From Escherichia coli (GTDB lineage Bacteria > Pseudomonadota > Gammaproteobacteria > Enterobacterales > Enterobacteriaceae), in assembly GCA_017639185.1 (NCBI GenBank), contig GCA_017639185.1_4892.1: a DNA stretch of 53,474 nucleotides; one strand, given 5' to 3'. The stretch's first letter is position 1; every line of letters starts with the position of its first letter. Under the pieces are notes generated by a model. It saw only the letters and a list, made by a program, of their open reading frames with translations. It was not told the origin of the DNA and did not search any database. Shown in pieces: positions 11,528 to 20,669 of this stretch. Position numbers and translations under genes: made by a program.

Positions 11528-12505
11528 TTAGATTGCAGACTTAGCCAGCAACATAACACCAGCGGTGTCTTTGTTGGAAGTCGCAACTTTAGACCAGGAC
11601 GCCTGAGCAGCCAGGTCTTCATCAGTCGGAGACTGACCAGCTTTGTGACCGACCCAGCTGTAGCCTTTCAGCGACACGTTGAAGTCGTATTCACCCTGCA
11701 TCTGACGCAGGATGTTTTCACCACCGGTTTGCTCGGAGGTAACCATGTCGTACAGGCCGCCGACCTGAACGATTGCAGCAGACGGGGTCAGACCCAGAGT
11801 GCGGTACTTAGCGGAAGCACCGGCGCCATCAACCAGAGCCGGGATGTCGGAAACGACATAACGACGACCCAGGAAGTCTTTGTACACGTTCAGGTCACCA
11901 ATCTGGAACAGGTGTTCTGTGTTGTTGATAGCCTGGTCGATGAGGGAGTGGAACGCAGTAGAGTGCATGATGTACGCACGAATCTGCTGAGAACGGTCAC
12001 CCATCTTCGCGTTGACTTTGTTCAGGTTCTGCATGGTGATGTTTGCAGCAGCACCGGAGCCTGAAGTTACGTCCAGAACAACATCAGCGTTTGCGCCGAT
12101 AGCAGCTACCAGACATGCAGCAGTGGTGTTCAGGTAGTCCTGGAACATCGCAGCAGAAGCCTGTGCAGCAACAACAGCTGCTGGTTCAGTATCACCTGCA
12201 CCGATGCGACGCATCATAGTACCGGTAATGTTCAGAGGACCAACACGGCCGTCGATTTTAACAGAGCGGTCCAGAATCTGGCCCAGAGTCTGTGCATCAA
12301 CTTTGTTGGTGCCTGCGTAAGCATTACGGCGAGTAGCGATGCCGTCAACCAGCTGCCACATTGCCTGCTCAACGTAATCACCAATTACGTACTGGTTACC
12401 CAGGATAAGGGTACCTGCAGAAGCTTCGTTGAACTTCTGTACGTCCTGGTCGACCAGTTCGGTGGCGGTAGAACGTACTTGTTCGTTAAAAATATACAGT
12501 GACAT
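11528..12505 (-). CDS. major capsid protein
   Basis: 325-aa ORF directly after the scaffold gene and followed by a strong terminator. Confidence 0.65.
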   Translation of the reverse strand: MSLYIFNEQVRSTATELVDQDVQKFNEASAGTLILGNQYVIGDYVEQAMWQLVDGIATRRNAYAGTNKVDAQTLGQILDRSVKIDGRVGPLNITGTMMRRIGAGDTEPAAVVAAQASAAMFQDYLNTTAACLVAAIGANADVVLDVTSGSGAAANITMQNLNKVNAKMGDRSQQIRAYIMHSTAFHSLIDQAINNTEHLFQIGDLNVYKDFLGRRYVVSDIPALVDGAGASAKYRTLGLTPSAAIVQVGGLYDMVTSEQTGGENILRQMQGEYDFNVSLKGYSWVGHKAGQSPTDEDLAAQASWSKVATSNKDTAGVMLLAKSAI

Positions 12506-12508
12506 AAC

Positions 12509-13222
12509 TTATTTGCCCCATTGTGTGTTTTGGATTTTAGCACGAGCACGTGCTATGCGGTCATCCCCGCCCCCGAAAGTGTGCTGTTCGCCACCGCCGT
12601 TCCCACCAGGATTAGCTCCGCCGCCGTTGGCACCGCCACCGCCAGCCTTGGTTCCACGCACAAGAGGTGCAAACTGCTTATCAGCGCGCATATGTTCCAC
12701 TAGTTCATCTGGCGTTGTAGCAGTCGGGTTACCCATAACATCCACGACAGTAGTACGCCACTTACCATCAATTTCCTGAGCGCGCAGTCGGGCCTTGATG
12801 TGTGGCATAATAAGTGCCGGGGTGTCAGAGAGTTGGTTAGCCAGGTTCAGCGCCAGGTTATCAACCATTTGCGCTTCCAGCTGAGCTTGCAGCTGTGCCT
12901 GACGATTAGTATACTGTTCCAGTTCAGCCTGATGCTTCTCTTTGATAGAGCGCTCAAGAGATTCAACATCACGCTCACGACGTGCGCGTTCTTCTTCAGC
13001 CAGGCGAGCACGTTCAGCTTCTTTTTTCTTTTCTTCGAGAAGCTTTTTGGTGTGCTGTTCCATACGCTGTTTTTCTTTGCGCAGGTCTTCTAATTCTTTC
13101 AGCGTTTTTTCGTCTGGTTCAACGTCCAAACGGAATGCGCCAGATGCTTCGTCTTTGATATACAGGCCACGGAAGCCTTCATCAACTTCGGTAAGGTCAG
13201 TTACAACTGTTTTAAGTGCCAT
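12509..13222 (-). CDS. capsid scaffolding protein
   Basis: 237 aa, highly charged coiled-coil region (EELEDLRKEKQRMEQHTKKLLEEKKKEAERARLAEEERARRERD). Lies between portal and capsid genes. Confidence 0.65.
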   Translation of the reverse strand: MALKTVVTDLTEVDEGFRGLYIKDEASGAFRLDVEPDEKTLKELEDLRKEKQRMEQHTKKLLEEKKKEAERARLAEEERARRERDVESLERSIKEKHQAELEQYTNRQAQLQAQLEAQMVDNLALNLANQLSDTPALIMPHIKARLRAQEIDGKWRTTVVDVMGNPTATTPDELVEHMRADKQFAPLVRGTKAGGGGANGGGANPGGNGGGEQHTFGGGDDRIARARAKIQNTQWGK

Positions 13223-13399
13223 AATTTTACAATCCTATATGAGAGGGGCTCAATCCACTCAAGTGGGCTCTGAACAGGTTTGGGTCAAACCGCGCAGCCA
13301 GCCATCCGAAATCCACTGAGCCCTGCAGACTCTCGTGGCCGGCTGTTGCGCGGTTGACATGAAGGATTATATAGCCAGGTAAACCGAAAGTAAATAGCT

Positions 13400-14962
13400 T
13401 TATTCAGTTTTTTCTGGATTATTTTCCTGCCCATCGCTGTTCTTAGCTGCTTGAGCGTTCTTTTCTGCTTCTTTTGCTACCTCACGTGCATCACGTTCAG
13501 CCAGCTCTTCGTCAATGAGCTTCTTGGCTTCTTCGTCAGTGAGTTTAGCAATGCCAGCCTGTTTGAGATTACTACGCATCTCACTGAACGTGATAGCACC
13601 AGCAATCCATTCGTTAACCAGCTGTTGGCGTTCTTGATACGTCAACTGGCTATAGATGAAGTTGTAGCTCAGGTTAATCGTAATCTCTTCTTTAGGGTGC
13701 CCGTAGAACAGACCACACCATTCGATTGCCTTACGGTAAGCAGCTTCAACGTTCTGCGCAACAGTTACGATAAGCGATGCCTCAGATGCGGCTTCGTTTT
13801 TAATCTCAACTTCGCGTCGTTCTACCTTACCATTCTCACGAATCAGTCGAGCACCGATGGCAATCATCTGCGCTTCTTTCTGCTTCATCGCTTCAAACGG
13901 CTGGGTGTTAGGGCTGGTCTGGATAATACCTACAGCGGCGTTAGCCGGCAGCGGAATACCACCAAACGAACCGAGTCGCAGTTCACCTTTCAGTACATCC
14001 TCAACCCAGGCCTCAGTAAGTCCAGAAGCCCATACTGTGGGTTGACCTGTTACGAAGCATGATTCTTCGTAGTCAGCAGAGTTACGGTAGTGTGCAATAT
14101 TAAGCACAGCTAAGTCGTACATCGGCGGAGGGTCAATCTCAGCGCTGTTTGTTTCAGAACCAATAAACTGGAACGGAATAAACTTCAGCGGTAAGCCATT
14201 GGAGTCGCGTAGGACAACATTCTCTTGCGTGACATACACCGCGCCGCCGGAGACGTTCTGCGCGTTCTTGTCGCCCTTATTGACCCACAAAGACTGGTTG
14301 CAATTGCCTTCTTCATCCAGGTAAAGGTGACGCCACACGGGTGTGTAGTCTTGCTGAAAGCCATCAGTAACCCCCGGTATTTGCTCGCAAATGACAACTT
14401 GAGTGAGCATCACTTTACCGTTGCGATACTCTTCTCGCCAGTTTATAATCTGCCATGGCATGTACAGCGTTACTGTCGGCTGCACTTCTCCGTCCATTAG
14501 TTCTTTACGGGTAAAACCAATGGATTCACCAAACTCACCGATACGTGCTTTTGGAAAGTCAGTCAGCAATCCTGCCCGTCCAAACGCAAGCACTGATTTA
14601 AAGCACTTACGCATTTGCTGAATAGCACCGATACCTGCGCCGTCGATATTTACTTTCAGCACTTCCATATCATCAGGCATCAGCATTTCAGGTTGCTGCT
14701 GGAATACCAGGCCAGTCATACCCGAAAGAGTTCGCTGTAGTACGTTATAGAACACAGCGCGACGCAGGTACGAATTGTACCGCATCAGGTTTTCTTCTGT
14801 GCAGTTCGTAGGGTCAGGACGAGGCAGATAAAAATCACCGCGTGCTTTAACAGCTTCCTGACCCTCGATGCAGTCCTTAATCATTCGGTACTTACCAGCG
14901 TTCTTAGTCAGCTCAGGACGCTGGTATCCGACGTTAGGCGTGCTGCTTGGGGTTATCGACAT
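13400..14962 (-). CDS. portal protein
   Basis: 520-aa ORF immediately downstream of the large terminase gene. Acidic/charged C-terminus. Confidence 0.6.
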   Translation of the reverse strand: MSITPSSTPNVGYQRPELTKNAGKYRMIKDCIEGQEAVKARGDFYLPRPDPTNCTEENLMRYNSYLRRAVFYNVLQRTLSGMTGLVFQQQPEMLMPDDMEVLKVNIDGAGIGAIQQMRKCFKSVLAFGRAGLLTDFPKARIGEFGESIGFTRKELMDGEVQPTVTLYMPWQIINWREEYRNGKVMLTQVVICEQIPGVTDGFQQDYTPVWRHLYLDEEGNCNQSLWVNKGDKNAQNVSGGAVYVTQENVVLRDSNGLPLKFIPFQFIGSETNSAEIDPPPMYDLAVLNIAHYRNSADYEESCFVTGQPTVWASGLTEAWVEDVLKGELRLGSFGGIPLPANAAVGIIQTSPNTQPFEAMKQKEAQMIAIGARLIRENGKVERREVEIKNEAASEASLIVTVAQNVEAAYRKAIEWCGLFYGHPKEEITINLSYNFIYSQLTYQERQQLVNEWIAGAITFSEMRSNLKQAGIAKLTDEEAKKLIDEELAERDAREVAKEAEKNAQAAKNSDGQENNPEKTE

Positions 14963-14963
14963 T

Positions 14964-16412
14964 TTACCGTCCCATATTTATTTTGAGCTTGGTAGTATAA
15001 CGGTTGATGCCACGCAACACCATGTAACGACAATCATCGTATACGTGGTCTTCAGAGTTCGTGTCGACATCTTCCGTGTTGTTCTTGTCACGCGGCAGAA
15101 CCGGCAACGTGTTTATGGCTGCTGGACAGTTTTCCATGAAATAAATGCCCGGCTTTTCCGTTTCGTCCATCTTAACATTTTTCAGAAGCTGACGGAATAG
15201 CTCTAAGCCATTTATTCTCGAACCTTGTGACTTGTCGGCCTTGACCCAGGTTACGCCTTCGTCTTCCATTTTCTTCGCGATAGTCTCAACGTCTTTTTCC
15301 TTGCACGCATAAATCTGACTATCCGCCGGACCAGGATTAACGTTACTTTGAATCCAGCCACCAGCCTGCAGATTTTCCTGTAGGCGAAGAACACCTTGAG
15401 CGACTTCGGCAGCAGATAGCTTAATACCCCTGTTAGCTTCTTTTTCAGAGCACCCATACCATTCAGCTATACGTATAATTGAACCACGCGGAATAAAGTA
15501 CTCATTGCCTTCGTCGTCTGTAAGCGAGGCACCATTTGCGATAGCCCAGATACCAACAGAGAACGGGTGAGTAGAACCCCAGTCAAGAGAACGTTCGATA
15601 GTCCAGCCTTTCGGAATACGCATACGCGGCAGAATACACTTGGTTGACCATACGTCGTCAAGCGCACCACCAGCAACAATATCCCAGTCACCCTCTTTCA
15701 TCGCAGCAACAAGAGCCGGGTCACCAAGACCTTCAAGACGGTCACCGTAGTCAGGGTCGTTTTCCATCAGCGTAGGGTTATCAGTCATCTTAGCCGGAAT
15801 GTACTGACGAGCCATACCGCCTTCGCGTTTTTCCTGCTTAACGATTTTCATCGGAGGAGCAGCAGTTACGAAAGTGCGCTTAACCCAGTTATGACCAACA
15901 CCACCAGGGTTTGACCCACAAAAGATGAGTGGCAGTGGCCGGAAAAAGTTCTCAGGTACTTTGAGAGCACCGAGTCGGACACGGTTACGCAAGAAGCGGT
16001 ACATCGTTTCTGTGAAGTGAGTAAGCTCATCCATCAGCAGAACGTGAATCTCCGCACCCTGGTAGGTATAAATATCTTTTTCGTACTGGAGGTGACAGAG
16101 TTTGATGTTCGCACCGTTCCAGAATTTGATAGTGTTGCTCGAGTAGTTAATCTTGCACTTGCCAGCTTTGCACATACCATCCAGCAAGGCAGGATAACTT
16201 GTGGGACCAACCATGTGGTTAGCCGTAAGGTCGTTATAGTTTCGGCGGAAAAGGTAAATCTGCAAGTCAGGAATCATGCAACACATGATAATTGACATTA
16301 CACGCATAAGGTGAGACTTACCACCACCAGCAGCACCACCGTACAGAATCTCAGTTGCCTGAGACTGCAGAGCGGCACCTTGTCTGTCATGCAGGTGAAA
16401 GTCAAGATTCAT
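14964..16412 (-). CDS. terL: terminase large subunit
   Basis: Walker A YGGAAGGGKSH near the N-terminus, Walker B-like VLLMDE, nuclease-sized C-terminal half. Followed by the portal gene. Confidence 0.85.
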   Translation of the reverse strand: MNLDFHLHDRQGAALQSQATEILYGGAAGGGKSHLMRVMSIIMCCMIPDLQIYLFRRNYNDLTANHMVGPTSYPALLDGMCKAGKCKINYSSNTIKFWNGANIKLCHLQYEKDIYTYQGAEIHVLLMDELTHFTETMYRFLRNRVRLGALKVPENFFRPLPLIFCGSNPGGVGHNWVKRTFVTAAPPMKIVKQEKREGGMARQYIPAKMTDNPTLMENDPDYGDRLEGLGDPALVAAMKEGDWDIVAGGALDDVWSTKCILPRMRIPKGWTIERSLDWGSTHPFSVGIWAIANGASLTDDEGNEYFIPRGSIIRIAEWYGCSEKEANRGIKLSAAEVAQGVLRLQENLQAGGWIQSNVNPGPADSQIYACKEKDVETIAKKMEDEGVTWVKADKSQGSRINGLELFRQLLKNVKMDETEKPGIYFMENCPAAINTLPVLPRDKNNTEDVDTNSEDHVYDDCRYMVLRGINRYTTKLKINMGR

Positions 16413-17875: not shown

Positions 17876-18369
17876 TCCTTATTAATACGTTCGTTGATGT
17901 ATTCGAGAGCTGCTTCAGGACCGTCTTCTTCAACAGTCCAGTCGTAAATGAAGAACTGCTTACTCATCATAACCAGCTCGTCAATGAGGTTGTCATACTG
18001 ATTGTATAACGCCTCAAGATTTTCCACAACACCAGGCATTTCGTCTTTTGTAGTTGCTAGTACCTTTTCAACAGGCGGCATACAAAATATAACGATGGCG
18101 TTGTCACACATATCTGCTACATGTGATACATTAATATTGATGACAGGCGTACGTTGAAGAACCAGACAATAGATATACTCAGATATAACAGCGCTGCGGT
18201 CATAAATACAATCGCCTTCCAACGCGTTTTCTTTGGTCTGTTTAGCCATGACAGATTTGGGATCTTTGTCAACAGTATTATGAATAACACTGCGGCCAGT
18301 ATGAGATTTAAGGAACTCAATAAGTGTACTTTTACCAGCATTATCGGGACCCTCGATTATGATGTTCAT
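17863..18369 (-). CDS. deoxynucleoside monophosphate (thymidylate-like) kinase
   Basis: N-terminal P-loop IIIEGPDNAGKSTL in the Tmk-type position. 168 aa. Confidence 0.55.
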   Translation of the reverse strand: MNIIIEGPDNAGKSTLIEFLKSHTGRSVIHNTVDKDPKSVMAKQTKENALEGDCIYDRSAVISEYIYCLVLQRTPVININVSHVADMCDNAIVIFCMPPVEKVLATTKDEMPGVVENLEALYNQYDNLIDELVMMSKQFFIYDWTVEEDGPEAALEYINERINKEWNK

Positions 18370-19040
18370 TCGTGTAAACTCCTGTACCGTTGTATCAGAA
18401 CTTGTTTGTTATCAACATATTCATCATTATAAGTGAAGTCGCTATCAATGTACATCATTAATTTGCTACGATCCATTAAAATATCACTTGGACCTGATTG
18501 CTTGATCGTACTGATAAACATGTTGTCGATACGGAGTAAGTCTTTTGCATGCTCTTCAAGGGCCGAAAGTATCAACTCGGCACCACCTACAATCCAGACG
18601 TCAGTACCTCTGGACTCAAGGTCTGCTGCCATCTCACCCAGATTATTGTAGCCTTCTGAAGCCATAATCTGGCGAGATACCGGCAGCAGTATTCTGTGGG
18701 CTGACATAGGCAGACTCATAGTCATATACGTGTTACGACCGGCTAACAGTACACTATGTCCGACCATTTTTACCGTTACATCTGCTATCATGTTTCGCAA
18801 CTGGTCACTTGGGAATTGTCCCCGTAGTTGCTGATACGCATTATAGCCTGGTTCTGTCGCAATTGAATTAGTCATAGTCCTGAAAAAGAGCATGTCTGAC
18901 GGACATTTCCAGGGCAGACCAGACTTAGGAAGCGCCCGAACCTCTTCCATAGTCTTGCACGAGTCAACCTGATGCTTCATAAACTCCGGTGACAACCCGA
19001 ATTCCCCATTTTGGCCCATTGCAAAGAGAATATTAATCAC
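18366..19040 (-). CDS. dihydrofolate reductase-like protein
   Basis: Segment GLPWKCPSDMLFFRTMT resembles the DHFR PW..P.D..F...T motif. VWIVGGAELILSAL resembles the GGG region. Contains an insertion relative to canonical DHFR. Confidence 0.5.
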   Translation of the reverse strand: MINILFAMGQNGEFGLSPEFMKHQVDSCKTMEEVRALPKSGLPWKCPSDMLFFRTMTNSIATEPGYNAYQQLRGQFPSDQLRNMIADVTVKMVGHSVLLAGRNTYMTMSLPMSAHRILLPVSRQIMASEGYNNLGEMAADLESRGTDVWIVGGAELILSALEEHAKDLLRIDNMFISTIKQSGPSDILMDRSKLMMYIDSDFTYNDEYVDNKQVLIQRYRSLHE

Positions 19041-19518
19041 CTAAAAAGCCCCCAGTAGTGTCAGATAAAAGCGAGTTCATTACGTCTTGTGGCAGTATCA
19101 CAGGATGGTTACCTGTTTCGATTTTTGGCTTATGTTTTGGCGCTTTTTTGCGCTCCATGTGCTCATCATGGGCCTTACAAATGGCATTTACGATGAAATC
19201 GTGCTGATATGCGTACCATTCATCGTTTTCTGGGTCGTATTTAAGCCCTACATAGTTCATCAGCGATGACATTACGTGAATGCCTTCGTGGGAAATGGTG
19301 TTGTACTTCAGGTCGTCTGGGTGGTACAGTTCGACGACGATTAACAGGTACGGATAGCTAACGCGAGAGAATGTAAAGGTAGATGCATTACGCGTTTCCC
19401 GGTCATTCCAGTTGCCAAAATCAGGCAAATCCATCAGTTTTTGGAGCTCTTCGTGCTCTTTTTCGCTACAAACGATAGCCAATTGAGGCGGATATGGCTC
19501 TAATTGAACAATTTTCAT
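19033..19518 (-). CDS. HExxH zinc metallopeptidase-like protein
   Basis: Contains SHEGIHV (HExxH). First gene of the leftward arm, next to the control region. Start taken at ATG 19518 (track start 19530 is GTG). Confidence 0.4.
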   Translation of the reverse strand: MKIVQLEPYPPQLAIVCSEKEHEELQKLMDLPDFGNWNDRETRNASTFTFSRVSYPYLLIVVELYHPDDLKYNTISHEGIHVMSSLMNYVGLKYDPENDEWYAYQHDFIVNAICKAHDEHMERKKAPKHKPKIETGNHPVILPQDVMNSLLSDTTGGFLGD

Positions 19519-19755
19519 AATGTTACCCACAAGTAGGAGACCGTGAGGCCGTTTGATGATTCACATTAATGATAGCGCGTGGAGGAGAGAAAGTACACCA
19601 CTTTTTAGTGAGTGTCTACACAATTTCCGAAAAATATAAAAAAATTTTAGAGGGGCTTCACTTATTATTGTGTTAAGCAAAAGGTTAGCTCCTGCCGTAT
19701 TACTCTGATGATGATTGGTCCTGATAAGGAGAAAATACCAAAAAATAAAAAAAAT

Positions 19756-19828
19756 TCCGCTGGCTCCTGGCGGGTAGCACCCTTGCGAAATTACCCCCCG
19801 CCGCACCTATTTCGATTGAAATGATTAC
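19756..19828 (+). repeat. control-region repeat unit A1
   Basis: About 70 bp, roughly 70% identical by eye to the unit at 19933..20003. Shared blocks CGGCTCCT, GCACCC, ACCCCCGCCG, ATTT.GATTGA, ATTAC. Confidence 0.6.
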
Positions 19829-19932
19829 TATGGTAACTATTGCGATTGATACAATTACCGTGTGAACTACTTCGGCCGTTATAGTACAAAGCGTCTATAA
19901 TTCAGATTGAAATTATATTTTTATAAATAATT

Positions 19933-20003
19933 TCGCCGGCTCCTTTAAGTGGCACCCCTACGTTACTATAACCCCCGCCGACCATTTTGGATTGAGTAAT
20001 TAC
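19933..20003 (+). repeat. control-region repeat unit A2
   Basis: Second copy of the unit at 19756..19828. Confidence 0.6.
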
Positions 20004-20149
20004 ATGCGAAACTATATCAATTGCATATGAGAACCACTCTCAATCGCAAGTGATTATCATTTCTAAAAACTTGCATAAACTTGCAATTCTTTTATGTACA
20101 ATCAATAGCGATTGGTCTATTATATATTTATTGAATGTGATGACTGATT

Positions 20150-20166
20150 GACCAGTCTAACTGGTC
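20150..20166. promoter_or_regulatory. perfect palindrome (candidate operator)
   Basis: GACCAGT-CTA-ACTGGTC, 7-bp arms. Overlaps a TTGACC -35-like hexamer. Confidence 0.45.
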
Positions 20167-20312
20167 TGGAGGATATTGGTATGGTTTAGATTTGGTAGGT
20201 AGTACTTAACCAGTCAACAGGTACATCTGGTAGATGTCAATGGTACCTTTTGCTCTTTAACAATTTGGTAACATGTTTCTTGTTGATAGTAACACTAGTA
20301 ATAGTTTCAACC

Positions 20313-20338
20313 AGTGACTATTGGTATCAATAGTCACT
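20313..20338. promoter_or_regulatory. perfect palindrome (candidate operator upstream of first early gene)
   Basis: AGTGACTATTG-GTAT-CAATAGTCACT, 11-bp arms with 4-bp spacer, about 30 bp upstream of the ATG at 20367. Confidence 0.5.
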
Positions 20339-20366
20339 CCTGGAAACTAATACAAAGGTAACTATT

Positions 20367-20669
20367 ATGAAACTGAACAATATCACGTCTGACGTAGAAA
20401 TGCAAGTCACAATCATGTCAATAGTTGAAGACATGCGCCAAGTGTGTATTGAAAGCAACATCTGTTATGATAACGTACAGCAATTATTTGTTGAACTTAT
20501 TACAGGTGCTGAAATAACTGATAATAAACTCTTGATTGACTTGGTCCGCGAAAGACTGATCTTAATTGGCGAAAACTTTGCGGCAGATGGCTTTAATGAA
20601 ATTTATCATGATGACTTCAGGCATTTGTTGAAAGTCGTACAAGCTGTTGAAAACGCAAGCGCGAAGTGA
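20367..20669 (+). CDS. early hypothetical protein
   Basis: 100-aa ORF, first gene right of the control region. AAAGG RBS. Confidence 0.5.
   Translation: MKLNNITSDVEMQVTIMSIVEDMRQVCIESNICYDNVQQLFVELITGAEITDNKLLIDLVRERLILIGENFAADGFNEIYHDDFRHLLKVVQAVENASAK

What the first reader, a model, noticed from the sequence alone, without database searches (positions are those of the whole stretch)
19033..19518. HExxH metallopeptidase-like protein as the first gene left of the control region
A 161-aa protein with a single HEGIH motif sits directly beside the regulatory region, the position where phages often place regulators or host-takeover factors. Small HExxH proteins include regulator-cleaving proteases.
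Basis: partly seen in the sequence, partly recalled or inferred. Interest (0 to 1): 0.45.

Follow-up and report, generated by a model that had tools for sequence, protein, structure and literature searches.

The report
Orphan phage HExxH zinc-peptidase-like protein
The gene is real and encodes a small protein whose conserved residues match the metal-binding and catalytic signature of zinc proteases. It belongs to a widespread phage protein family that nobody has characterised, so its target is unknown.

Summary
Window 19033-19518 (minus strand) encodes a 161-aa protein with one HEGIH motif. It is the first gene left of an 848-bp non-coding region in a Rosemountvirus (BP63-like, virulent) genome.

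The motif is not a chance match. Of 137 proteins retrieved across three searches, 135 carry HExxH-X(16-20)-ExxxY, and 127 of those have the exact X18 spacing. His77, Glu78, His81 and Glu100 are invariant in a 135-sequence alignment, and Tyr104 is kept in at least 90%.

An AlphaFold model (pLDDT 89.7) gives strand-strand-helix-strand-strand, then the HExxH helix, then the Glu helix, then a disordered tail.

The family is PHROG 1365 / VOG3488, listed as function unknown. It matches no Pfam, NCBIfam or PADLOC model and no PDB sequence, and has no significant PDB structural neighbour. It is not a member of ImmA/IrrE, SprT, Wss1 or Ku.

Homologues in at least nine phage lineages sit beside DNA polymerase, terminase or nucleotide-metabolism genes.

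Best reading: an active minimal zinc metallopeptidase with an unknown substrate. This is a moderately interesting new variant of a known kind.

The parts
19033..19518 (-). Complete CDS: 161 codons plus the TAA stop. It encodes a PHROG 1365 / VOG3488 family protein.
   Evidence: ORF list and translation. phrog_1365 match at E=4.4e-27. Orthologues annotated as VOG3488.
19144..19518 (-). Conserved catalytic-type core, residues 1-125. Predicted elements: strands 2-5 and 12-16, helix 19-29, strands 45-51 and 58-64, helix 72-90, helix 100-125.
   Evidence: AF2 model mfd30d555ef8c, with block pLDDT of 91-98 over residues 1-130. This is the region matched in the family profile and in BFVD structures.
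19276..19290 (-). HEGIH, residues 77-81. His77 and His81 are the presumed zinc ligands and Glu78 the presumed general base.
   Evidence: Read directly from the sequence. Invariant in 135 of 135 aligned relatives. Lies in helix 72-90.
19207..19221 (-). EWYAY, residues 100-104. Glu100 is the presumed third zinc ligand, 18 residues after His81. Tyr104 lies one helical turn further on, giving an 'ExxxY' signature.
   Evidence: Glu100 is invariant and Tyr104 is kept in at least 90% of relatives. HExxH-X18-ExxxY occurs in 127 of the 137 retrieved proteins. The segment is the start of helix 100-125.
19036..19143 (-). C-terminal tail, residues 126-161, specific to the roughly 52-kb myovirus clade. It contains a basic linker (KKAPKHKPK), the conserved IETGNHP (nt 19102-19122), a short helix at 144-151 and a terminal FLxD. 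It is presumed to be a docking or autoinhibitory tail.
   Evidence: Low pLDDT of 44-66. I133, T135, G136, N137, H138, P139, L150, F158 and L159 are conserved in close relatives. The tail is also present in fHy-Eco03, SOI901 and S144 but absent from most family members, whose median length is 131 aa. The proposed function is inference only.
19033..19040 (-). 8-nt overlap (GTGATTAA) between the stop codon of this gene and the GTG start of the downstream DHFR-like gene (18366-19040). This suggests co-transcription and possibly translational coupling.
   Evidence: The same overlap is annotated in phage yarpen. The coupling itself is inferred.
19566..19620 (-). Conserved promoter-like element upstream of the gene. 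It reads TAGACA (19618-19613), then a 17-nt spacer, then TACTTT (19595-19590), followed by GCTATCATTA (19576-19567).
   Evidence: These blocks are invariant in four phage genera. The -35-like hexamer matches 5 of 6 and the -10-like hexamer 3 of 6, by my own reading. The consensus scan did not report it. Function is not shown.

Best explanation
The gene encodes a soluble, single-domain, zinc-dependent metallohydrolase, most probably a minimal gluzincin-type metallopeptidase. It belongs to an uncharacterised, phage-restricted family (PHROG 1365 / VOG3488).

Proposed mechanism, inferred from the zincin paradigm:
- His77 and His81 on the HEGIH helix, with Glu100 at the start of the next helix, hold one Zn2+.
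- Glu78 activates the zinc-bound water.
- Tyr104, one turn after Glu100 at the position of the Asp in the thermolysin/neprilysin 'ExxxD', supports the site or the transition state.
- The beta-sheet ahead of the active-site helix would bind the substrate strand.

In this roughly 52-kb myovirus clade, a 36-residue disordered tail with conserved short motifs probably docks the enzyme onto a partner or masks the active site.

The gene is the first of the long leftward transcription unit: HExxH protein, DHFR-like, dNMP-kinase-like, small terminase candidate, large terminase, portal and onward. It begins about 245 nt inside the likely edge of the terminal repeat.

The substrate is not known. My best guess is a protein bound to, or acting on, DNA during replication or packaging, either host or phage. 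This is because homologues in unrelated phages sit directly beside DNA polymerase I, DNA methyltransferases, nucleotide-metabolism genes or terminase subunits.

What is shown: gene, motif, conservation, predicted secondary structure, family spread and gene contexts. What is inferred: metal binding, proteolysis, tail function and substrate class.
For: - Motif and conservation. His77, Glu78, His81 and Glu100 are invariant, and Asn98, Ala103 and Tyr104 are kept in at least 90% of 135 sequences that are mostly 20-30% identical. Of 137 retrieved proteins, 135 carry HExxH-X(16-20)-ExxxY and 127 have X18. The motif is also present in homologues from Drulisvirus, Guernseyvirinae, Murrayvirus, crAss-like phages, Flavobacterium phages and Tenacibaculum phages.
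- Structure. The AF2 model has pLDDT 89.7 and pTM 0.77, with the HExxH in helix 72-90 and Glu100/Tyr104 opening helix 100-125, after a strand/helix/strand unit. This is the element order described for the zincin core, a beta-sheet plus a helix, then the HExxH helix, then the Glu helix (PMC5512222).
- Structural relatives. BFVD returned 31 phage proteins at E<1e-3 with the same fold. The few that carry names are labelled SprT-like, metalloprotease or PolyVal metallopeptidase.
- Family coherence. All 42 sampled relatives match phrog_1365. The representative search found 127 cluster representatives at E<1e-3.
- Gene contexts.
- Localisation. Only 1 of 136 relatives has a signal peptide, so the family is cytoplasmic.
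Against: - No PDB sequence relative, even with a 135-sequence profile at E<=10.
- No Pfam, NCBIfam or PADLOC family.
- The authors of the fHy-Eco03 genome reported 'No significant hits' in HHpred for the orthologue g12.
- I could not read model coordinates, so the spatial convergence of His77, His81 and Glu100 is unverified. Glu100 sits at the very start of its helix, and the HExxH is 9 residues from the end of its own helix. This is less obviously compatible with a tight antiparallel pair than the thermolysin arrangement.
- HExxH motifs also occur in non-peptidase enzymes.
- No experiment addresses activity, substrate or phenotype.
Confidence: 0.55

Rival explanations
1. The protein is a metal-dependent enzyme that uses the HExxH...E site but is not a peptidase. 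It could, for example, be a hydrolase acting on a nucleotide, nucleic acid or small molecule, on a fold unrelated to zincins.
Against: The motif grammar is exactly that of gluzincin peptidases: HExxH on one helix, with N-x-E...aromatic on the next, at X18 spacing. The order of secondary-structure elements fits the zincin core (PMC5512222). Several of the weak sequence signals, and the weak M3 structural signal, point to peptidase families.
Confidence: 0.2
2. The protein is an ImmA/IrrE-type or other regulator-cleaving protease that controls the adjacent regulatory region.
For: The gene lies next to a highly conserved 848-bp non-coding region with divergent transcription. ImmA/IrrE proteins are also small HExxH...E enzymes.
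Against: There is no PF06114 match for this protein, and only 1 of 42 relatives reaches a marginal E=0.064. No HTH or repressor gene is adjacent. Close relatives are virulent: vB_SenM-1, 88% identical, does not form prophages (abstract of PMC7503781). No close homologue lies in a bacterial chromosome; the single hit is an 18.5-kb MAG contig. In other phages the gene is embedded in replication or packaging modules rather than beside regulators.
Confidence: 0.05
3. The protein is a late or morphogenetic protease that processes virion or packaging proteins and may be carried in the particle.
For: The gene overlaps the large terminase gene in Murrayvirus and the small terminase gene in crAss-like phages. 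It is co-directional with, and 6-8 genes upstream of, the large terminase gene in Rosemountvirus, Loughboroughvirus, Fpv1 and a metagenomic contig. The head module here has portal, scaffold and major head protein but no canonical prohead protease. The fHy-Eco03 orthologue gp12 was flagged as particle-associated by LC-MS/MS.
Against: That study scored 48 of 81 proteins as particle-associated, including enzymes. The S144 orthologue ORF01 is absent from the table of 32 virion proteins. In Guernseyvirinae and Drulisvirus the gene abuts DNA polymerase I rather than packaging genes. Phages with this head-gene layout usually need no protease, which is general knowledge.
Confidence: 0.12
4. The protein is a Ku/Gam-like DNA-end-binding protein, as the S144 orthologue is annotated.
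For: Phage S144 ORF01 carries the published annotation 'putative Ku protein', based on an InterPro SPOC-like superfamily hit (PMC7432712). The gene lies close to the probable genome end.
Confidence: 0.02

Closest known systems
Gluzincin metallopeptidases (thermolysin M4, aminopeptidase N/LTA4H M1, oligopeptidases M3) and the archaeal 'minigluzincins'
   Same: Both have HExxH on one helix and a Glu ligand on the next. The 18-residue spacing equals that of family M1, and an Asn lies just before the Glu. The residue four positions after the Glu is conserved (Tyr here, Asp in thermolysin and neprilysin). Like minigluzincins, the catalytic unit is very small, about 125 aa, and stands alone. The comparison residues come from my own knowledge of these families; the motif in this protein comes.
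   Different: There is no detectable sequence or profile similarity to any of them, and no significant structural match. The protein lacks the M1 GxMEN motif and the large flanking domains. It has ExxxY instead of ExxxD, and an extra N-terminal beta-hairpin.
SprT / Spartan / Wss1 (WLM) DNA-dependent metalloproteases
   Same: They are small HExxH domains, and a few structural relatives in BFVD are labelled SprT-like. Three of 42 relatives give marginal PF10263 hits. The family keeps company with DNA-metabolism genes, and this protein has a basic linker after the core. It might therefore work in a similar way on DNA-bound proteins, which is speculation.
   Different: The third ligand in those families is His, whereas here it is an invariant Glu. 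There is no zinc-ribbon, and no Pfam match at threshold. Profile comparison with an SprT alignment gives only 11.7% probability over the HExxH helix alone. The Wss1 HExxHxxxxxH pattern is absent.
ImmA/IrrE (Peptidase_M78) regulator-cleaving proteases
   Same: They are small cytoplasmic HExxH enzymes with a downstream Glu ligand, encoded by mobile elements.
   Different: There is no PF06114 match, no partner repressor gene and no temperate life style. The family is found in virulent phages, within replication or packaging modules.
Zincin-like MPTase domains of phage/plasmid polyvalent proteins (Iyer et al. 2017, PMC5512222)
   Same: They are phage-borne minimal zincin cores with HExxH plus a Glu on the next helix. 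Their proposed roles are processing proteins or attacking host proteins. One BFVD neighbour carries this label at E=0.076.
   Different: Those domains are embedded in giant multidomain proteins, whereas this one stands alone. No Pfam MPTase-PolyVal match was found.
PHROG 1365 / pVOG VOG3488
   Same: This protein is a clear member, at E=4.4e-27. All 42 sampled relatives match, and orthologues are annotated as VOG3488.
   Different: These are catalogue entries with no function attached. The conserved HExxH-X18-ExxxY signature is not mentioned in any paper I could find.

Membership tests
Zincin / gluzincin metallopeptidase superfamily | HExxH motif located on an alpha-helix, with the Glu conserved | tested here: met
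   HEGIH at residues 77-81 lies inside helix 72-90. H, E and H are invariant in 135 sequences.
Zincin / gluzincin metallopeptidase superfamily | Third metal ligand (Glu) on the following helix | tested here: met
   Glu100 is invariant, lies 18 residues after His81 in 127 of 137 proteins, and sits at the start of helix 100-125. This is met at the sequence and secondary-structure level only.
Zincin / gluzincin metallopeptidase superfamily | Three-dimensional zincin fold, with the three ligands converging on one site | tested here: inconclusive
Zincin / gluzincin metallopeptidase superfamily | Zinc binding and peptide-bond hydrolysis | not testable with these tools
   This needs metal analysis and protease assays with an E78Q control.
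ImmA/IrrE (Peptidase_M78, PF06114) | Match to the family profile | tested here: not met
   No Pfam hit at E<=10. One of 42 relatives reaches E=0.064.
ImmA/IrrE (Peptidase_M78, PF06114) | Adjacent HTH repressor substrate, in a temperate or mobile-element setting | tested here: not met
   The neighbours are a DHFR-like gene and, across the non-coding region, small proteins with no Pfam match. Close relative vB_SenM-1 does not form prophages, and no chromosomal prophage copies were found.
SprT-like (PF10263) | Match to the family profile | tested here: not met
   No hit for this protein. Three of 42 relatives are marginal, with a best E of 0.0015. hhalign against an alignment of E. coli SprT and relatives gave 11.7% probability over 22 columns. 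That SprT alignment was shallow (Neff about 2), so the test is weak.
SprT-like (PF10263) | Third ligand His after HExxH, and a C-terminal zinc-ribbon | tested here: not met
   The conserved third residue is Glu100, and the tail contains no Cys-rich ribbon.
Wss1 / WLM | HExxHxxxxxH spacing | tested here: not met
   The residue six positions after His81 is Met87. No Pfam WLM hit was found.
M1 aminopeptidases | GxMEN exopeptidase motif and multi-domain architecture, in addition to HExxH-X18-E | tested here: not met
   Only the spacing is shared. No GxMEN motif occurs in the 161-aa sequence, and there is no Pfam Peptidase_M1 hit.
Ku / Mu Gam | Match to the Ku or Gam profile, and a Ku-type fold | tested here: not met
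   No Pfam hit. The predicted fold and structure searches show no Ku similarity.
PHROG 1365 / VOG3488 | Significant match to the family profile over most of its length | tested here: met
   E=4.4e-27, covering residues 1-126 against profile positions 5-125 of 127.

The most novel reading that the evidence does not exclude
PHROG 1365 is a previously unrecognised, widespread family of minimal, phage-specific zinc proteases with the signature HExxH-X18-ExxxY. Its fold has no solved relative. Virulent phages of many lineages (crAss-like, T7-like, Jersey-like, Rosemountvirus and Flavobacterium phages) deploy it alongside their replication and packaging machinery. It would cleave a DNA-associated host or defence protein, working as a phage counterpart of SprT/Spartan or of the ArdC-type peptidases.
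Probability: 0.25. Interest if true: 0.6.

Novelty: new variant of a known kind. Interest (0 to 1): 0.4.

Why it matters
If the family is an active protease, it would be among the smallest stand-alone zinc peptidases. It would also give a function class to an uncharacterised protein family found across many phage lineages, including gut crAss-like phages and phages considered for Salmonella and E. coli biocontrol.

Identifying its substrate could reveal a host protein that many unrelated virulent phages need to remove, or a phage protein that they need to process, during DNA replication or packaging.

The result also corrects a published 'Ku protein' annotation. It supplies a simple signature, HExxH-X18-ExxxY, for annotating the family.

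Tried and rejected
- A first AlphaFold run on 11 close homologues was unusable (pLDDT 49). A rerun with 42 diverse relatives succeeded.
- The word-indexed protein search found only close relatives. The exhaustive representative search was needed to reach the wider family.
- The AFDB Foldseek library was unavailable.
- The search for related loci with the diverse alignment failed because no conserved stretch was long enough.
- Pfam, NCBIfam and PADLOC gave nothing at threshold.
- PDB sequence searches with the single sequence, the 42-sequence profile and the 135-sequence profile gave nothing significant. The single-sequence hits were spurious matches of 'YDPENDEW' to designed Kelch-like repeats.
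- The SprT relationship was tested by hhalign and rejected as a membership claim.
- Literature searches for the PHROG or VOG identifiers, and for phage HExxH anti-defence proteases, found nothing relevant.
- I considered a specific terminase association after finding overlaps with TerL and TerS genes. I downgraded it when Guernseyvirinae and Drulisvirus homologues turned out to abut DNA polymerase I.
- I considered a prohead-protease role. No canonical protease is present in the head module, but I found no positive evidence, and the S144 orthologue is absent from the virion proteome.
- An Rfam scan of the upstream non-coding region found nothing credible.
- The simple sigma-70 scan reported no leftward promoter in the non-coding region.

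Full report
**The object**

The window is a Rosemountvirus genome, a BP63-like myovirus. It is 95-98% identical at the DNA level to Salmonella phages triss, emiel and yarpen and to Escherichia phage swi3.

On the minus strand an ORF runs from ATG 19518 to TAA 19035-19033 and encodes 161 aa. It contains one HExxH motif, HEGIH at residues 77-81 (nt 19276-19290). Its stop overlaps by 8 nt the GTG start of a DHFR-like gene (18366-19040). Next in the same direction come a dNMP-kinase-like gene, two or three small genes, the large terminase, the portal, a scaffold protein and the major head protein.

Upstream lies 848 nt of non-coding DNA (19519-20366) and a divergent set of small genes.

**Is the motif meaningful?**

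Orthologues occur in about 60 phage records at 38-97% identity. A profile search of 1.84 billion cluster representatives found 127 proteins at E<1e-3, mostly 110-145 aa long. All 42 that I sampled match PHROG 1365, listed as 'unknown function'.

- In a 135-sequence alignment, most sequences are only 20-30% identical to this protein. The invariant positions are His77, Glu78, His81 and Glu100. Asn98, Ala103 and Tyr104 are kept in at least 90%.
- A regular-expression count found HExxH-X(16-20)-ExxxY in 135 of 137 retrieved proteins, with exactly 18 residues in 127.
- One exception is a repetitive false hit. The other has Asn in place of the Tyr.
- The same signature is present in homologues from Drulisvirus, Guernseyvirinae, Murrayvirus, crAss-like phages and Flavobacterium and Tenacibaculum phages.

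This is the grammar of gluzincin zinc peptidases, with two His on one helix and a Glu on the next. The 18-residue spacing is that of family M1. A conserved residue lies four positions after the Glu, where thermolysin and neprilysin have Asp. The comparison with those families rests on my own knowledge of them.

**Structure**

With only close homologues AlphaFold failed (pLDDT 49). With 42 diverse relatives it gave pLDDT 89.7 and pTM 0.77.

The predicted elements are:
- strands 2-5 and 12-16
- helix 19-29
- strands 45-51 and 58-64
- helix 72-90, which carries HEGIH
- helix 100-125, which opens with Glu100 and Tyr104
- a low-confidence tail, residues 126-161

This order matches the published description of the zincin core: a small sheet with a flanking helix, followed by the HExxH helix and the Glu helix (PMC5512222).

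The model nevertheless has no significant neighbour among solved structures.
- The best Foldseek E-value is 0.14.

Against predicted viral structures there are 31 matches at E<1e-3. All are phage proteins of 105-230 aa, and the few with names are called SprT-like, metalloprotease or PolyVal metallopeptidase.

I could not read coordinates, so the geometry of the putative metal site is unverified. This is the main gap.

**Family membership**

- No Pfam model matches, even at E<=10.
- Relatives give only marginal hits, scattered over several zincin families and unrelated families: DUF5700 in 5 of 42, SprT-like in 3 of 42, and M78, M91 and M35 in one each.
- NCBIfam and PADLOC give nothing.
- PDB sequence searches with profiles give nothing better than oligoendopeptidase F at E=0.84.
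- A profile-profile comparison with an alignment of E. coli SprT and its relatives gave 11.7% probability, limited to the HExxH helix.
- The Wss1 pattern HExxHxxxxxH is absent, since residue 87 is Met.
- The authors of phage fHy-Eco03 also reported no HHpred hit for their orthologue g12.

The protein is therefore not a member of ImmA/IrrE, SprT or Wss1. It is best described as a separate, uncharacterised branch carrying the zincin signature.

The S144 orthologue is published as a 'putative Ku protein'. Nothing here supports that annotation.

**Context and likely role**

In the roughly 52-kb myovirus group (Rosemountvirus, Loughboroughvirus, fHy-Eco03, SOI901), the gene is always the first of the long operon that starts with nucleotide-metabolism genes and continues into packaging and morphogenesis.

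In fHy-Eco03 the 3.7-kb direct terminal repeat ends 268 nt upstream of the gene. That boundary maps to about window position 19762.

The upstream non-coding DNA is strikingly conserved between genera, with 76% mean column identity. It includes an invariant TAGACA-17 nt-TACTTT element at 19590-19618.

In other lineages the gene is found in these positions:

| Lineage | Position of the homologue |
|---|---|
| Murrayvirus | Overlaps the large terminase gene |
| crAss-like cr116_1 and IAS virus | Overlaps the small terminase gene |
| crAss-like cr85_1 | Between tail genes |
| Flavobacterium phage Fpv1 and a metagenomic contig | Eight genes upstream of the large terminase |
| Flavobacterium phage Fpv5 | Between two DNA methyltransferase genes |
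| Guernseyvirinae and Drulisvirus | Immediately next to DNA polymerase I |

The common thread is DNA replication and packaging genes in virulent phages, not regulators.

- Only one relative has a signal peptide.
- The clade-specific tail has conserved short motifs: IETGNHP, and a terminal FLxD after a basic linker. This suggests partner docking or self-masking, which is inference.
- Virion association is doubtful. It was reported for fHy-Eco03 gp12, but 48 of 81 proteins were scored that way.
- The S144 orthologue is not among the 32 virion proteins reported for that phage.
- gp12 was not among the genes tested for toxicity.

**Verdict**

The specific family guesses, and the regulator-cleaving idea, are not supported.

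The most likely mechanism is a minimal cytoplasmic zinc peptidase acting on an unknown protein connected with DNA replication or packaging (confidence about 0.55). A non-peptidase metalloenzyme on a new fold is the main rival (about 0.2).

This is a new variant of a known kind. It is an orphan but widespread phage family that deserves a structure-level check and a simple biochemical test, and its interest is moderate.

Noticed in passing
window 19519-20366: The non-coding region is more conserved between phage genera than the flanking proteins. Mean column identity is 76% among this phage, fHy-Eco03, SOI901 and S144, and some 100-nt blocks reach 84% against fHy-Eco03. The HExxH proteins of these phages are only 38-65% identical.
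   Followed up: partly
window ~19762 (19758-19803 and 19934-19980): The inner boundary of the 3.7-kb direct terminal repeat of fHy-Eco03 maps to about 19762. This is the junction of a GC-rich element (...GGAGCCAGCGG) and a T-tract. Two copies of the roughly 46-nt GC-rich element lie just inside. The physical genome end or packaging boundary of this phage may therefore lie here.
   Followed up: partly
window 20286-20365: A 38-nt imperfect inverted repeat (79% complementary, 4-nt loop) ends exactly at the start codon of the first rightward gene, at 20367. Rfam gave only spurious miRNA-like hits to it.
   Followed up: no
window 18366-19040 (-): The 224-aa 'DHFR-like' neighbour matches Pfam DHFR only weakly and partially (28.9 bits, residues 94-188). 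Its orthologues were detected in purified virions of both S144 and fHy-Eco03. That is odd for a nucleotide-metabolism enzyme.
   Followed up: no
L010 3501-4010 (Salmonella phage S144 ORF01): The published 'putative Ku protein' annotation of the orthologue rests on an InterPro superfamily hit. It is contradicted by the conserved HExxH...E signature and by the predicted fold.
   Followed up: yes
window 11528-16412 (-): The head module reads large terminase, portal, scaffold, major head protein and adaptor, with no canonical prohead protease gene.
   Followed up: partly
PP583539.1 (search hit H12): A record named 'Listeria phage 220426122051', with host Listeria monocytogenes, is 95.8% identical to this enterobacterial phage group over the 2.1-kb query. 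The host label looks doubtful.
   Followed up: no
P0062, P0015; L015 4001-4501: There are some family oddities. One relative has a lipoprotein-type signal peptide (MQKVIFILLLFVSC...). One is 388 aa long with a C-terminal CxxC...CxxC extension. The IAS virus copy reads HKCEH instead of HExxH, and its translation contains ambiguous residues, so it may be degraded or mis-sequenced.
   Followed up: no
L020 (MAG JAEWIF010000040.1, 18.5 kb): The only close homologue in the bacterial/archaeal genome collection is on a short contig of a 'Proteobacteria bacterium' MAG (96% identity). It is probably a phage contig binned into the MAG.
   Followed up: no
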